A stretch of DNA of 64,000 nucleotides from the human T2T-CHM13v2.0 reference genome, Homo sapiens (GCF_009914755.1 NC_060926.1); one strand, 5' to 3'. Numbered from the stretch's first letter, positions 2,095-25,868 are shown. Notes: generated by a model not told the origin, from the sequence alone. Numbers and translations: made by a program.

Positions 2095-2221
2095 CTCCTC
2101 CTGCACCTAGGCCTTCCCAAGAAGAGTTAGCCAGCTCCTCCATGTATGTCTTGTAATTTGGGTCATGGCACAGAACTCTGTGCTTCTCAGTCATGAGACA
2201 CGAAACCATTGCATATCTATA
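2095..2221 (-). pseudogene. S28 pseudogene later exon, 3' part only: YRYAMVSCLMTEKHRVLCHDPNYKTYMEELANSSWEGLGAGG
   Basis: Resembles the S28 C..xxY..Y...L.N.SW.G..AGG segment preceding RQWxYQTC; donor GGA G|gtaaag; 5' part is replaced by an L1 fragment. Confidence 0.75.
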
Positions 2222-2234
2222 GACTGATGGTGTG

Positions 2235-2420
2235 TGGAGGTGGCAGAAGGGATTGACAATAAAGGGCTGGGAGAATTTGGTGGGTGATGATGGAAGTGTT
2301 CTACATCTTAGCTGTGACAGTGGTTGCTTGACTGCTTATGTTTGTCAAACTCAAAACCACACACTAAAGAAAGTAAAATTCACTGTATGTCAATTATGCC
2401 TCAATTTTTAAGAAATTTTT
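2235..2420 (+). mobile_element. Old L1 (L1MC/ME-like) 3' fragment abutting pseudogene exon
   Basis: gatggaagtgttctacatctt...tttgtcaaactc...gtcaattatgcctcaat resembles mammalian L1 3' ends. Confidence 0.7.
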
Positions 2421-3161
2421 AGAAAAGAATATACATGGAACTAGCTTTCAAGTCTAAATGAAATTTACATTTGCAACTTATTTTAAATGTCTAAAGTGAT
2501 TGCTTTTATTCAAAGAAGATACAAATGAAATAAATATAAATTCCTACAGGATGAGACTCCAGGTTACTTAGCCTGGAAGATGATTGCACGAAGCTTCTGC
2601 TTGTTTGGTTTTTCTCCTTGTAAAAGATGAAAAAAAAAATGCTCAACTCTCCTAACTGGTTGCAGGGATAACTTAAAAAAAAGCAAAAAACAAACAAAAA
2701 AAACCAGACAGTTGAAAATCTCCCGTGTGAGACACATTTCTTACAACTGCTCATTTACTTTAGCAATGGCAAGCAATCCCTGGGGTTGTTGGCCTGTGAA
2801 TAAATACTGCATTTTCACAACTTCCTAAAGTTATAAAACTTTGCCTGTACATTTGCCGTATTCTCAGGACAGCTTGTGCACAGCAGACATATAAGGCAGC
2901 ATGCCTGTCCCTGGGGAAGACAATCTAGATGAAAAGACAAGACAGAAAGCCGAAAAAACACAGGTAAATAAGCTGCTGATGGACTTTGCAGATAGGGGAA
3001 CAATATGGGCTTGAGTAGTTACTGGTGGCTTCTGGGAAAGATAGGAATTGAGATAAATCTGGAAAGTTGTATAGAGACGGTAAGACAGTGCCTTCTGGCA
3101 GCAGGAATGATCAGCGAGTAAGGACAGTGCAAACAGGAAAACACAGAAATGACCTGGCACA

Positions 3162-3485
3162 GGCCAGGCACGGTGGCTCACTCCTGTAATCCCAGCACTT
3201 TAGGAGGTCGAGGCGGGCAGATCACGAGGTCAGGAGATCAAGACCATCCTGGCTAACACAGGAAACCCTGTCTCTACTAAAAATACAAAAAATTAGCCGG
3301 GAGTGGTGGCCGGCACCCGTAGTCCCAGCTACTCAGGAGGCTGAGGCAGGAGAATGGCGTGAACCCGGGAGTCAGAGCTTGTACTGAGCTGAGATCGCAC
3401 CACTGCACTCCAGCCTGGGCGACAGAGTGAGACTCCGTCTCAAAAAAATAAAAAAAATAAAGATAAATAAAAAATAAAAAAAGAA
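3162..3485 (+). mobile_element. AluY-like
   Basis: gagatcaagaccatcctggctaacac and gaatggcgtgaacccggga diagnostics; TSD agaaatgacctggcac. Confidence 0.92.
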
Positions 3486-4114
3486 ATGACCTGGCACTAA
3501 AATCATCTGTCACCTTGACAGCAGGGTAGTGTCTTTTCAGCCAAGCAGTAAATCCAGGCTTGGATGGGTCTGGCAAACCCTGAAGCCTAAAGCTCAGCTT
3601 CCCTCCTTTCAGGAGGATTCAGCGGCCAAACCCAATTTCAGCCAGGTCAACATTTACCACGTAGCTTACTACATATCCAGAGGCCTATAGGGAACTGGTT
3701 GACAAAGTATGTCTGACGCTACATTATAATGAAGCTATATTATAATAAAGCATGGATTCAGTGTTTTTGGTTGAACCAAGGGAAGAGGCTTCAATAACGT
3801 ATTTTGCTGAGTGCATAATGTATTGTCATGGAATAAGTGACTTTTTTCCTCATTTCTCTGACTCTTTCTAGGGACAAATGTCAAACTTCACAATAGAACT
3901 ATACATTCAGGTCAGGATAAGGAAACCCACAAGATTTTCAGACTGTGTTCTACCACTTAATGCAAAAGGAACCTTCATATTTAATTTTAGTGTGCTCTCA
4001 GAATAAAAGATTAATTTTTTTAAATGACAGGCCAGAAGATTTAAAATTTGCAGTTACTGACCCACACAGATCCAAGGCTGTTCTGAAATTCTCTGGCCTA
4101 ATTCCCTTAAACAA

Positions 4115-4146
4115 ACACACACACACACACACACACACACACACAC
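4115..4146 (+). repeat. (CA)n microsatellite
   Basis: Direct CA run. Confidence 0.95.
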
Positions 4147-4151
4147 CCCAC

Positions 4152-23009: not shown

Positions 23010-24150
23010 AACGCCTGCAAATCAGAGAGGAAGAAAAATGGGATACTCAATAGGAAACTGGACAAGGAATATTAAAATGCAGTTCAGAGAAGAAAACGGA
23101 GCCTTCTCTAGGGTCAGAAGAATGTAAGTTAAAACAACCCTGAGATTCTATTTTCACCCATCAGATTGCCAAAAATTTAGAATTTTGATAAAATCATTTC
23201 TTGACAAAGACGTGAAAAAACAAGAATTATGCACTGTTAGTGGGACCATAGTTTATGTGTTCATTTGGAGAACAGTCTGGCAAGATTTTGTAAAATTGAG
23301 CACACCAATATCCTCACACGCAGCTTTTCTACTCCTGAGTCTATAGGCCAGAAAAGTTATCTCACAGATGCCCAAGGTACCAAGTACTAGTGGGATGAAT
23401 ACAGCATTGCGGTTTCCAGGAGTCAGAGACAATAAAGATGCTCATCGAAATGAAACAGATAAGTAAAATGTTCACCACATATATACTATAACACTGTACA
23501 GGAGGAAGAAGAGAGGAAGGAGGGAACTAGCTGCACATACAGCAACATGAATGGATCTCCAAACCATAACACTAAAAAAAAAAAAAAAAGCTCACCCCTG
23601 TAATCCTAGCACTTTGGGAGGATGAGGAGGGCGAATCACTTGAGGCCAGGAGTTCAAGACCAGCCTGGCCAACATGGTGAAACCCCGTCTCTACTAAAAA
23701 TACAAAAATTAGCTGGGTGTGTTGGTAGGCGCCTGTAATCCCAGCTACTCAGGAGGCTGAGGCAGGAGAATCGCTTGAACCCAGGAGGTGGAGGTTGCAG
23801 TGAGCTGAGATCGCGCCATTGCACTCCAGCCTAGGCAACAGAGCAAGACTCTGTCTCAAATAAAAAAAAAAAAAAAAGGAACAGAGTGGATCTAGGGCAT
23901 AATACCATTTCAGTACATTTTTTAAAGCAAAAGCAATACAGTATGTTTTTCATTGGACACACATCTAAAGAAACTTGCTGAAAGTCGCTTGGAAGGGCAC
24001 ATAGTAAATATACAAGATGTGAGGAGGGGAATGAAATTGGGAACCAGGAGTGAAAAGAGAAGAAAGTAAAATTAAAATAAAAGAGGGGCTGCAGCATAAA
24101 ATGATGGTGATGAAGTGCCATGAAATTAGGAGCACAAATCAGCTCAGTTC
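23010..24150 (+). mobile_element. Old L1 (L1ME-like) fragment with AluS at about 23590-23878
   Basis: Degenerate L1 3' text and Alu consensus. Confidence 0.6.
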
Positions 24151-24484
24151 AATGCCGCTAAACAATCTTCAGGATCATACTGTGGAACAGAAAGGAAAAA
24201 AAAAACAAGATAAATAACTTAAATTTCCCCCAAAGGAAATCTGGGCTTATAAGCTCAACAGTATCGCCTGCAGCTACTACAATTTACCATAGATGCTAAC
24301 TGTGTAGTGAAATGGACATTTATGAAATAATAGTCTGTGGCCATAGCAGAGGGAAAGTAGAACACAGAATTACATGGAAACCATGGTTGCAACTACATCA
24401 AAAGGATAAAAACGCATAAGAACACAGGGAAACAGAAGCACGTGTAAGGAAGAGGAATCACAAATTTTCTTTAACAGAAAATCA

Positions 24485-24850
24485 AGTCGGGCACAGTGGC
24501 TTACACCTATTATCCCAGCACTCTGGGAGGCCAAGGTAGGAGGATTGCTTGAGCCAGGAGTTCCAGAAGAGCTTGGAAAGCATAATGAGAACCCATCTCT
24601 ACAAAAAATAAATACACAAAAATAGCCTCAACCTCGAGGACTCAAGCGATCCTCTTGCCTCAGCATCCAAATTAGCTGGGATGCTGAGCTACTTGGGATG
24701 CTACTTGAGAGCTACTTGGAATGCTGTTGCAAGAGGCTCACTTGAGTCCTGGAGGTCGAGACTGCAGTGAGCCATAAACGCGCCACTGCATTCCAGCCTG
24801 GACGACAGAGCAGGACCCTGTCTCAAAAAAAAAAAAAAAAAAAAAAAAAA
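24485..24850 (+). mobile_element. AluJ-like with internal inverted duplication
   Basis: Alu consensus with an antisense Alu segment at 24624-24677. Confidence 0.88.
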
Positions 24851-25210
24851 ACCCGAAAATTATAAAGTACTTTTGAAAATAAGGAATAAACAGAATATAT
24901 GAATTGACACAAGAATCGCATCACGATTGCCCTTCTTAGCAGCCAAATGTTGGCTATGGCTTCCTTGTTTATTTGTTTTTAAAATTATAGCAGCTGGGCT
25001 CTACCGCATGCCCCCAAAGCAACCCCTTCAAAACCCAGAAGCTGAAAAAGACCTCAGAAGAGATGTGAGGAAAATTGACAAAATGTTTACAGTTGTTCTG
25101 TTAGGTGTCATTACATGAGGCTGTGATATTATTTTCTGTACTCTTTTGCATATTTGAAAGATTTCATAATTAAAAGTAAATATAAATTAGTGTAATAAGA
25201 TGCAAAATGG

Positions 25211-25535
25211 GGCCAGGAGCGGTGGCTCACTCCTGTAATCCCATCACTTCGAGAGGCTGAGGCGGGTGGATCACTTGAGGTCAGCAGGTGGATCACCTGA
25301 GGTCAGGAGTTCGAGACCAGCCCAGCCAACATGGTGAAACCCCATCTCTACCAAAAAAAAAAAGTACAAACATTAGCTGGGCGTGGTGGCACATGCCTGT
25401 AGTTCAGCTACTTGGGAGGCTGAGGCAGGAGGATCACTTGAGTCCAGGAGGTGGAGGTTGCAGTGAGCTGAGATCGTGCCACTGCCCTCCAGCCTGGGCG
25501 ACAGAGTAAGACCCAATCTCAAAAAAAAAAAGAAA
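25211..25535 (+). mobile_element. AluS with short internal tandem duplication
   Basis: ggtggatcac..gaggtcag repeated; degenerate TSD aagatgc.aaatgg. Confidence 0.9.
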
Positions 25536-25691
25536 GATGCTAAATGGCCGTCTCAGAACCCGGCCCAGAGGAGGTCTGCAGAACACCCTGGTTCCTCTTC
25601 TCTCCCATCCCCTCCAGAGCTCCACCAACGAGACCTCAGAGCTGGCACCATCCCTTACCTGTTACCACCTACCGTGGTCATTGTTTTTTAC

Positions 25692-25868
25692 CTGTTGCCA
25701 GACTTGCCCACTATCATTACTAAAACAGTCAAGCTTTTGTTGGAACCATTGGTCATTTTCATCCTTCTCTGTCGACGGTGGAGCAGATCGCCTCCATCTG
25801 GGGATGAAACTCTGAACGTAGGAACAGAGGAGCAGCAGCAGCAGCCTCCACCCAGGAGCTCAGGCCAC
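25692..25868 (-). pseudogene. S28 pseudogene exon 1: (M>V)A*APGWRLLLLLLCSYVQSFIPRWRRSAPPSTEKDENDQWFQQKLDCFSNDSGQVWQQ
   Basis: Kozak-like GCAGCC-GTG-G; TGA at codon 3 (25860-25862); Leu-rich signal peptide; S28 motif WFxQKLDHF..W.QR; donor CAG|gtaaaa at 25692/25691; 177 nt, phase 0. Confidence 0.9.

What the first reader, a model, noticed from the sequence alone, without database searches (positions are those of the whole stretch)
2095..25868. Hidden multi-exon fossil of an additional S28 serine peptidase gene downstream of FAM124B (candidate unitary pseudogene)
Seen in sequence: exons at 25692-25868, 19046-19230, 13904-14136, 12530-12663 and 2095-2221 (minus strand) lie in order, and exons 1-4 splice in compatible phases (CAG|AGG, TT|A, G|AC). 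They yield signal peptide, WFQQKLD(C)F, WQQR, PGGPVFLIVGGE, EHRFY, YLSSRQALA, FGGS(C)AGSL, YLEVV...C and SW.G.GAGG. Established: these are peptidase family S28 hallmarks, and the functional human members are PRCP, DPP7 and PRSS16, none of which neighbours FAM124B. Inference: introns rule out a retrocopy, and the residues differ substantially from PRSS16 as I recall it, so this may be a separate paralog lost in the human lineage. I recall similar proteins in other vertebrates named 'putative serine protease K12H4.7-like', but this is unverified. I do not know whether the locus is already annotated.
Basis: partly seen in the sequence, partly recalled or inferred. Interest (0 to 1): 0.92.

Follow-up and report, generated by a model that had tools for sequence, protein, structure and literature searches.

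The report
Dead S28 peptidase gene beside FAM124B
Just downstream of human FAM124B lie the decayed exons of a serine peptidase gene of the S28 family, with a second and older wreck further on; mouse lemur, colugo, elephants and sea cows still have intact predicted proteins of this kind, so the human lineage has lost a protease that other mammals keep.

Summary
All five claimed exons exist. With four more (one in the window, three to its left) they form a colinear nine-exon, ~31 kb minus-strand relic of a peptidase S28 gene (window -5297..25868). Pfam Peptidase_S28 scores 69.9 and 53.7 bits on exons 3 and 2. The relic is dead: ATG is replaced by GTG, with four nonsense codons, about six frameshifting indels and two destroyed splice acceptors. 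The Ser, Asp and His motifs are still readable. Its closest intact relative is Microcebus murinus 'putative serine protease K12H4.7' (68% identity, sister in the tree at SH-aLRT 99-100). It is not close to PRSS16, PRCP or DPP7, which sit on other chromosomes. No intact copy of this subfamily was found elsewhere in T2T-CHM13, so it is a lineage-lost (unitary) pseudogene. I also found a second, more degraded tandem copy 26-88 kb left of the window, nearest to the colugo and afrotherian genes. Synteny, the timing of the loss and GENCODE status could not be checked. This is a new member of a known kind, of moderate interest.

The parts
25692..25868 (-). Copy A exon 1. It holds the signal-peptide region and WFQQKLDCF...WQQ. 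GTG (25868-25866) stands where orthologs have ATG, and there is a TGA at 25862-25860.
   Evidence: It aligns with afrotherian N-termini (MARALGW...) and by tblastn. The donor is CAG|gtaaaa. There is no Pfam hit on its own.
19046..19230 (-). Copy A exon 2 (RSFMTDEF...PGGPVFLIVGGE...EHRFY). It has a TGA at 19125-19123. That stop lies inside a probable compensated -1/+1 frameshift pair ending in the G-run 19103-19098.
   Evidence: Pfam S28 53.7 bits. It is 67% identical to Microcebus P0181. The alternative frame reads MENAKKLGG against lemur MKYAEKLGA. Acceptor AG and donor GT are present.
13904..14136 (-). Copy A exon 3 with the nucleophile motif GGSCAG. It has a TGA at 14069-14067, where orthologs have Arg.
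   Evidence: Pfam S28 69.9 bits. It is 73% identical to P0181. It aligns to the GGSYGG motif of DPP7 and PRCP structures. The stop was located.
12530..12663 (-). Copy A exon 4 (YLEVVQNSLAAHNSECPEIV / QASDIMVEMLK...DFK). The acceptor is AT instead of AG (12665-12664). There is a net -2 frameshift at about 12601.
   Evidence: tblastn gives two HSPs in different frames, 90% and 62% identical to P0181. Flanks are shown. Copy B keeps cag| at the equivalent acceptor.
7237..7359 (-). The acceptor reads TG instead of AG. There is a -1 frameshift at about 7267. The 3' boundary is unclear.
   Evidence: tblastn to P0181, P0071 and P0186, own S28 HMM positions 250-282, and flanks with a comparison to copy B.
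2095..2266 (-). Copy A exon 6 (...RYAMVSCLMTEKHRVLCHDPNYKTYMEELANSSWEGLGAGG). The frame is open, but it is about 5 codons shorter than orthologs at its 5' end. The 5' boundary is tentative.
   Evidence: It is 44% identical to P0181 residues 247-289 and covers own HMM positions 307-352. The donor is G|gtaaag.
1..2094 (-). Intron 6 of copy A, which runs off the left edge of the window. The rest of the feature lies outside the window and cannot be listed as parts. Exon 7 is at -1816..-1726 (RQWFYQTCTEFGF*..., TAG at -1767..-1769, donor probably lost). Exon 8 is at -4126..-3917 (DPWH motif; +2 in the T-run at its start, TAG at -3980..-3982, -1 shift at about -4000). Exon 9 is at -5297..-5176 (GEAHCANLY...LQKWLTNPSDR plus TGA, no lesion). 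The second tandem relic, copy B, is at -87956..-26031 (G000:C2:224724044-224785969).
   Evidence: Exons 7-9: Pfam S28 gives 34.3, 31.3 and 14.2 bits. They are 84%, 81%/88% and 71% identical to P0181. The genome scans also hit them, and their flanks are shown. Copy B. Pfam gives 28.0 bits on its exon 7 and 23.3 bits on its exon 3. The tree places it next to Galeopterus.

Best explanation
Window -5297..25868 (minus strand) is the unprocessed, nine-exon wreck of a fourth vertebrate S28 serine peptidase gene. This lineage is labelled 'putative serine protease K12H4.7' or 'thymus-specific serine protease-like' in other species.

The ancestral product was a signal-peptide-bearing alpha/beta-hydrolase peptidase with a Ser-Asp-His triad, like PRCP, DPP7 and PRSS16. 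Its substrate and tissue are unknown.

In the lineage leading to humans the gene was inactivated and has decayed neutrally for tens of millions of years. No intact copy of this subfamily was found in the human genome, so it is a unitary (lineage-lost) pseudogene with no coding function today. It is the ortholog of the apparently intact Microcebus murinus gene.

A second tandem copy further downstream died too, probably earlier.

Shown here: the exons, the family, the lesions, the sister relation to the lemur protein, and the lack of an intact copy elsewhere. Inferred: orthology by position, the time of loss, and the ancestral biochemical activity.
For: Family. Pfam PF05577 scores above its 25-bit cut-off on exons 2, 3, 7 and 8 (53.7, 69.9, 34.3 and 31.3 bits). 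Nine pieces lie colinear on one strand and cover positions 12-486 of a 509-position S28 HMM that I built from 122 full-length hits.

Broken gene. GTG stands in place of ATG. There are TGA codons at 25862, 19125 and 14069 and TAG codons at -1767 and -3980. Frame changes occur inside exons 2, 4, 5 and 8. The acceptors of exons 4 and 5 read AT and TG.

Not a retrocopy. Introns of 1.2-6.5 kb separate the exons, and most GT/AG signals are kept.

Which gene. The best full-length relatives are named K12H4.7 or TSSP-like proteins of Afrotheria, Galeopterus and Microcebus (306 hits at E <= 1e-20, best 120 listed; 65 hits). Microcebus P0181 is 44-90% identical per exon and 68% over 361 columns. It is sister to the relic at SH-aLRT 99 (40 rows) and 100 (30 rows). 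P0181 itself matches Pfam S28 over positions 21-434 of 434 (409.8 bits) and aligns end to end with the DPP7 structure, triad motifs included.

Unitary. Genome-wide, PF05577 finds only PRSS16 (C6), PRCP (C11), DPP7 (C9), one PRCP retrocopy and this locus (18 matches). P0181 finds this locus (8 hits), copy B (2), the PRCP retrocopy, PRCP and PRSS16 (1 each), 13 in all.
Against: - Position of the intact genes next to FAM124B in lemur, colugo or elephant could not be checked, because no eukaryote genome other than the window's own is held. Orthology therefore rests on the tree alone.
- P0181 is a predicted isoform that lacks exon 1. That it is functional is not shown.
- The time of loss is only a rough inference. 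It rests on the lesion count and on the end branches (0.32-0.35 for the relic against 0.12-0.13 for lemur).
- Several lesion calls are read from protein alignments and from paralog B, not from outgroup DNA. These are the start codon, the e2 indel pair, the e7 donor and the e5 donor.
- The place of human PRSS16 relative to this clade is unstable. It falls outside and in an unresolved polytomy with the vertebrate clade. Both trees were 'quick' searches.
- Residual transcription or a non-coding role was not tested.
Confidence: 0.9

Rival explanations
1. It is a dead duplicate (non-unitary unprocessed pseudogene) of one of the three living human S28 genes, PRSS16, PRCP or DPP7.
For: It belongs to the same Pfam family. 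In the 30-row tree PRSS16 falls in an unresolved polytomy with the vertebrate clade that holds the relic.
Against: - In one search the lemur protein matches relic exon 3 at 72% identity, but the PRSS16 exon at 38% and the PRCP exon at 43%.
- The PDB sequences of DPP7 and PRCP score only 30.1 and 26.0 bits on exon 3, against 84.8 bits for the manatee protein P0014 in the representative library.
- The relic is sister to Microcebus, inside a eutherian clade with SH-aLRT 99.
- PRSS16 has a very long branch (1.26-1.87).
- The only DNA-level matches between the PRCP-derived locus L001 and the relic region are Alu-like repeats. The three parent loci themselves were not compared with the relic at DNA level.
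Confidence: 0.03
2. The locus still encodes a protein, or a shortened one, that annotation has missed.
For: Exons 6 and 9 are open. The triad motifs GGSCAG, DPWH and AHCAN survive. An unnamed database ORF (P0006, 61 aa) is identical to part of exon 3.
Against: - There is no ATG at the ancestral start.
- Stops, frameshifts or lost splice signals affect 7 of the 9 exons (1, 2, 3, 4, 5, 7 and 8). Exon 6 is shortened in frame, and only exon 9 is clean.
- RefSeq annotates no gene here (hub table).
- P0006 runs on into intron sequence, so it is only an ORF call on raw DNA.
Confidence: 0.01
3. The coding gene is dead, but the relic, its promoter or its transcript has been kept for a non-coding role.
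For: None was obtained here. I note only that most splice signals and exon 9 are unusually well kept.
Against: Lesions are spread over the whole gene, as expected for neutral decay. Copy B shows the same fate, with an Alu inside an exon. No annotated transcript or functional element overlaps it. The only RefSeq element listed, a silencer, lies at 44161-44455 (hub table).
Confidence: 0.05

Closest known systems
Microcebus murinus 'putative serine protease K12H4.7 isoform X2' (P0181, name)
   Same: It shares the exon-by-exon sequence (44-90% identity) and the C-terminal tail (LQKWLTN...). It is sister in both trees. It has a full S28 domain with the triad motifs.
   Different: The lemur protein is an open predicted product. 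The human locus has lost its start, four codons to nonsense changes, its reading frame in four exons and two acceptors. Synteny was not tested.
Afrotherian 'putative serine protease K12H4.7' / 'Serine protease 16' multigene family (elephant, manatee, dugong, golden mole, elephant shrew) and the Galeopterus gene
   Same: They fall in the same eutherian clade (SH-aLRT 99). They are 59-62% identical to relic exon 3 by tblastn (64-66% by phmmer). Copy B groups with them (98) and next to Galeopterus (81).
   Different: They are many apparently intact copies per genome. The introduction of bioRxiv 10.1101/137554 (passage seen) calls PRSS16-related genes an expanded placenta-specific family in Loxodonta. 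In human both copies are dead.
PRSS16 (thymus-specific serine protease), human chromosome 6
   Same: It is in the same Pfam family, S28, and is a multi-exon gene.
   Different: It lies on a different chromosome. In one search the lemur protein matches the PRSS16 exon at 38%, against 72% for relic exon 3. Its branch is very long and its place unstable. It is functional in humans. Its role in thymic cortical epithelium is recalled knowledge, not tested here.
PRCP and DPP7 (solved structures 3N2Z, 3JYH, 4EBB)
   Same: They share the S28 fold family. GGSxxG, DPW and AH align with the relic and its lemur ortholog.
   Different: They are only distant paralogs (30.1 and 26.0 bits on exon 3) and serve as the outgroup in the trees. 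They lie on C9 and C11.
Classical human unitary pseudogenes such as GULOP and the urate oxidase pseudogene (recalled, not examined here)
   Same: It is a multi-exon relic at a single locus with no functional copy in the genome and intact genes in other mammals.
   Different: It is not annotated in the RefSeq table supplied. The function of the lost enzyme is unknown. Here a tandem pair was lost.

Membership tests
Peptidase family S28 (Pfam PF05577) | Significant match to the family HMM above the curated cut-off | tested here: met
   Exon 3 scores 69.9 bits, exon 2 53.7, exon 7 34.3 and exon 8 31.3, against a cut-off of 25. Exon 9 scores 14.2, below it. Exons 1, 4, 5 and 6 have no Pfam hit on their own. 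In the genome scan, 4 of the 18 matches are at this locus.
Peptidase family S28 (Pfam PF05577) | Ser-Asp-His triad in the GGSxxG, DPW and AH motifs | tested here: met
   GGSCAG (exon 3), IDPWH (exon 8) and EAHCAN (exon 9) align with GGSYGG, LDPW and GAHH of the DPP7 chains, directly or through the lemur ortholog. That those are the catalytic residues of DPP7 and PRCP is established knowledge, recalled here.
Peptidase family S28 (Pfam PF05577) | An open reading frame able to give an active enzyme | tested here: not met
   There is no ATG at the ancestral start, 5 in-frame stops, about 6 frameshifting indels and 2 lost acceptors. It is a relic of a member, not a working member.
Unitary (lineage-lost) pseudogene | Unprocessed gene structure with introns, and disabling mutations | tested here: met
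   Nine exons span about 31 kb with GT/AG at most junctions. The lesions are listed.
Unitary (lineage-lost) pseudogene | No functional copy of the same gene elsewhere in the genome | tested here: met
   Searches find only PRSS16, PRCP, DPP7, a PRCP retrocopy, this relic and its dead tandem copy B. The scans score only the best candidates, so a very divergent copy could escape.
Unitary (lineage-lost) pseudogene | An intact ortholog in other species | tested here: met
   Microcebus P0181 is the sister sequence and has a full S28 domain. That it is functional is not shown.
Unitary (lineage-lost) pseudogene | The intact ortholog lies at the syntenic position (3' of FAM124B) | not testable with these tools
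   No non-human eukaryote genome is held. The protein libraries carry no genomic context.
Processed pseudogene (retrocopy) | Exons juxtaposed without introns | tested here: not met
   The exons are separated by 1.2-6.5 kb. By contrast the PRCP copy at L001 has its exons juxtaposed.

The most novel reading that the evidence does not exclude
The ancestor of primates carried a tandem pair of K12H4.7-like S28 peptidase genes 3' of FAM124B, and both died on the way to humans. The same small family was kept in strepsirrhines and colugos and expanded into a placenta-expressed multigene family in Afrotheria.

In addition, the slowly evolving fish, amphibian and platypus genes now labelled 'thymus-specific serine protease' would be orthologs of this lost gene rather than of mammalian PRSS16. 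That would make PRSS16 a fast-evolving derived paralog and the human genome the loser of the ancestral vertebrate form.
Probability: 0.3. Interest if true: 0.6.

Novelty: new member of a known kind. Interest (0 to 1): 0.5.

Why it matters
- It adds one, probably two, lost genes to the human protease repertoire. They belong to a family thought to have only three human members, and the locus carries no gene in the supplied RefSeq table.
- Reference-based gene-loss screens that start from human or mouse gene sets cannot see such genes, so this is a worked example of what they miss.
- It gives a handle on an unstudied vertebrate peptidase lineage that has expanded in elephants and sea cows.
- It warns that 'prss16' labels in fishes and 'K12H4.7' labels in mammals may hide the true orthology.
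- It has no obvious medical consequence.

Tried and rejected
- Word-indexed protein search with exon 3 alone, lengths 'longer', found nothing. The exhaustive representative search was needed.
- In one search my reference for exon 2 was one base out of frame and gave no hit. I corrected it.
- Chance similarity is rejected by the E-values and by the colinearity of nine pieces.
- A retrocopy is rejected by the introns.
- A recent segmental duplicate of PRSS16, PRCP or DPP7 is rejected by identity and by the trees.
A pre-eutherian age for the A/B duplication is therefore the best tree but is not established.
- The Atlas look-up of P0181 gave only generic S28 clusters.
- None of the ten literature searches turned up a paper on a human S28 pseudogene near FAM124B:
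  - 'K12H4.7' + serine protease (18 papers, listing only);
  - unitary pseudogene + PRSS16 (0 papers);
  - thymus-specific serine protease + pseudogene + paralog (1 paper, listing only);
  - FAM124B + pseudogene + SERPINE2;
  - prss16 + zebrafish + thymic epithelial;
  - S28 + PRSS16 + PRCP + DPP7 + phylogen;
  - PRSS16 / Loxodonta / gene family expansion;
  - Peptidase_S28 + pseudogene;
  - PRSS16 + elephant + placenta;
  - degradome + PRSS16 + pseudogenes.
- Passages read:
  - PMC7695478 covers only mouse Prss16 expression.
  - PMC2865498 has a table listing PRSS16 as absent in zebra finch and chicken and present in human and mouse.
  - PMC3381679 does not mention the protease family in the passages found.
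- Subscription journals, GENCODE, Ensembl and TOGA tracks, and supplementary files were not seen.

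
Full report
**Observation**

Exon 1 (25692-25868) reads ...APGWRLLLLLLCSYVQSF...WFQQKLDCFSNDSGQVWQQ and ends at CAG|gtaaaa. Exon 2 (19046-19230) starts after a polypyrimidine tract and AG, reads RSFMTDEFHQPGGPVFLIVGGE...EHRFY, and ends TT|gtacgt. 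Exon 3 (13904-14136) reads DLSISSLHYLSSRQALA...FGGSCAGSL...KVDFY and ends G|gtgagt.

Pfam Peptidase_S28 (PF05577) scores 69.9 bits (E 2.5e-19) on exon 3 and 53.7 bits on exon 2. My first reference for exon 2, was out of frame and gave nothing.

A six-frame scan of the whole assembly with PF05577 returned 18 matches at E <= 0.001:
- 8 on C6 (PRSS16);
- 3 on C11 (PRCP);
- 2 on C9 (DPP7);
- 1 on C2 at 101.98 Mb;
- 4 at this locus, two of them left of the window.

**Full anatomy**

I fetched 20 kb to the left of the window. The exhaustive representative search with exon 3 gave 1139 hits at E <= 0.001, of which the best 150 were listed. I aligned intact relatives from that search to the region with tblastn. 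I also searched it with an S28 HMM built from 122 full-length hits.

Nine colinear pieces cover HMM positions 12-486 of 509:
- a new exon 5 at 7237-7359;
- exon 7 at -1816..-1726 (RQWFYQTCTEFGF...);
- exon 8 at -4126..-3917 (...GFIDPWHALG...YIEG);
- exon 9 at -5297..-5176 (GEAHCANLY...LQKWLTNPSDR, then stop).

Pfam confirms exons 7 and 8 above the cut-off (34.3 and 31.3 bits) and exon 9 below it (14.2 bits). The short pieces of exons 4, 5, 6 and 8a give no Pfam hit on their own. In one search, 4 of the 9 relic peptides matched and 3 were above the cut-off.

**State of the gene**

Measured against the intact relatives, copy A carries these lesions:

| Exon | Lesion |
|---|---|
| 1 | GTG where relatives have ATG (25868-25866) |
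| 1 | TGA at 25862-25860, at an Arg/Gln position |
| 2 | TGA at 19125-19123, inside what looks like a compensated -1/+1 indel pair |
| 3 | TGA at 14069-14067, where all relatives have Arg |
| 4 | Acceptor reads AT (12665-12664) |
| 4 | Net -2 shift at about 12601 |
| 5 | Acceptor reads TG |
| 5 | -1 shift at about 7267 |
| 6 | About five codons missing at the 5' end |
| 7 | TAG at -1767..-1769 |
| 7 | Probably lost donor |
| 8 | Two extra T at the start |
| 8 | TAG at -3980..-3982 |
| 8 | -1 shift at about -4000 |

For the exon 2 pair, the other frame reads MENAKKLGG against lemur MKYAEKLGA.

Exons 6 and 9 are open. The start codon, the indel pair and the two donor calls are inferences from protein alignments and from paralog B, not from outgroup DNA. 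The triad motifs GGSCAG, DPWH and AHCAN are still legible. They align with GGSYGG, DPW and AH of the DPP7 and PRCP chains.

**What gene it was**

The name-carrying protein search with the manatee hit P0014 gave 306 proteins at E <= 1e-20, with the best 120 listed. A second search with the elephant hit P0011 gave 65.

The nearest proteins are labelled 'putative serine protease K12H4.7', 'thymus-specific serine protease-like' or 'Serine protease 16'. They come from these species:
- Trichechus, Dugong, Loxodonta and Elephas, with many entries each;
- Chrysochloris and Elephantulus;
- Galeopterus variegatus and Microcebus murinus.

After these come platypus, a bilby protein, amphibians and many fishes (about 45-49% identity to P0014). 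No anthropoid, rodent, carnivore, bat or ungulate protein appears in these lists. This is suggestive only, since the lists are capped.

Microcebus P0181 (426 aa; Pfam S28 409.8 bits over positions 21-434 of 434) matches the relic at 67, 73, 90, 62, 67, 44, 84, 81, 88 and 71% identity along the successive pieces, including the C-terminal tail.

In a 40-row tree (487 columns, IQ-TREE quick, rooted on human PRCP and DPP7) the relic is sister to Microcebus at SH-aLRT 99. That pair sits inside a eutherian clade of 14 rows (99) and a vertebrate clade of 25 rows (100). Human PRSS16 lies elsewhere on a long branch.

In one search the lemur protein is 72% identical to relic exon 3, but only 38% to the PRSS16 exon and 43% to the PRCP exon. 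The relic is thus not a copy of any living human S28 gene.

P0181 searched against the whole assembly gave 13 matches. Eight are in this relic, two are in a second relic, and one each falls in the PRCP retrocopy, PRCP and PRSS16. No intact gene of this subfamily was found in T2T-CHM13.

**A second relic**

The two extra hits led me to fetch 100 kb further left. tblastn and the HMM find a second colinear minus-strand series at G000:C2:224724044-224785969, which is window -87956..-26031. It has pieces equivalent to exons 2-9. Exon 2 is split by an Alu. It carries stops, frameshifts and a deletion in exon 8. Exon 7 is still open. Pfam gives 28.0 bits on its exon 7 and 23.3 bits on its exon 3, and 3 further short pieces give nothing.

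I built a second tree of 30 rows. Elephas, herring, Rhinatrema and 8 unnamed rows were dropped to fit the time limit, and copy B was added. In it, copy A is again sister to Microcebus (100). Copy B sits next to Galeopterus (81), within the Galeopterus plus Afrotheria clade (98). Its end branch is 0.86, against 0.35 for copy A.

The best tree therefore suggests two old eutherian paralogs, both dead in human. However, an AU test does not reject a tree in which A, B, lemur and colugo form one clade (p 0.181). The age of the duplication is open. In this smaller tree PRSS16 falls into an unresolved polytomy with the vertebrate clade, so its relation to this lineage is also open.

**Timing (inference)**

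Copy A has about a dozen disabling lesions in roughly 1.45 kb of coding sequence. Its end branch is 2.7 times that of the lemur. Both fit neutral decay for most of the time since the split from strepsirrhines, which would mean a loss early on the haplorhine or anthropoid stem. This needs primate alignments.

An unnamed record (P0003, 83% identical to exon 3) carries the same intron-derived flanks. It has Arg in place of the human TGA but Thr at the nucleophile position. It is an unspliced ORF call over the same exon in some other genome and adds little.

**Function**

Today the locus most likely does nothing. By homology the ancestral product was a secreted or lysosomal S28 serine peptidase. 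Its substrates are unknown. The only functional hint I found is one sentence in the introduction of bioRxiv 10.1101/137554 (passages and outline seen). It says that genes related to PRSS16 form an expanded placenta-specific family in Loxodonta. The cited sources were not visible.

**Is it known?**

The supplied RefSeq table has no gene here. Ten full-text searches found no paper on a human S28 pseudogene near FAM124B or on a fourth vertebrate S28 lineage. The zebra finch degradome paper (passage seen) lists only PRSS16 for this family. GENCODE, Ensembl, MEROPS, TOGA, subscription journals and supplements could not be consulted, so prior annotation cannot be excluded.

**Verdict**

This is a unitary pseudogene of a K12H4.7-like S28 peptidase, with a second and older tandem relic beside it. 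It is a new member of a well-known kind of feature. Interest is moderate, at 0.5.

Noticed in passing
L001 = G000:C2:101978449-101982024 (outside the window): The strongest PF05577 hit in the genome scan covers model positions 1-196 in one stretch with 5 stops. It is a processed pseudogene of PRCP. Successive PRCP exons lie juxtaposed without introns at 80-91% DNA identity, flanked by Alu elements.
   Followed up: yes
Window -87956..-26031 (G000:C2:224724044-224785969; L026-L035): There is a second, more degraded tandem S28 relic (copy B) on the same strand. An Alu is inserted in its exon 2. The small RefSeq pseudogene LOC100289117 (-33926..-33768, + strand) lies inside its exon 2-exon 3 intron and appears unrelated.
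   Followed up: partly
Proteins (e.g. P0011, P0155-P0173, P0179, P0185, P0194): Elephants, manatees and dugong each have many distinct proteins of this subfamily. There are at least 12 separate UniRef 'Serine protease 16' entries for Loxodonta among the listed hits, several on one contig. This looks like a lineage-specific tandem expansion.
   Followed up: partly
Trees: Fish, amphibian and platypus proteins labelled 'thymus-specific serine protease' cluster tightly with the K12H4.7-like mammalian proteins on short branches. Human PRSS16 sits on a very long branch whose place changes with taxon sampling. The 'prss16' labels in fishes may not reflect one-to-one orthology with mammalian PRSS16.
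   Followed up: partly
P0006 and P0003: The representative library holds short ORF calls that run from exon 3 into its flanking intron. One is identical to the human sequence and one is 83% identical. Raw-DNA ORF predictions over this pseudogene exon thus circulate as 'proteins'.
   Followed up: no
PMC2865498 (passage): The zebra finch degradome table lists PRSS16 as absent from zebra finch and chicken. No bird or reptile protein appeared among the listed K12H4.7-like hits either. Sauropsids may lack both lineages.
   Followed up: no
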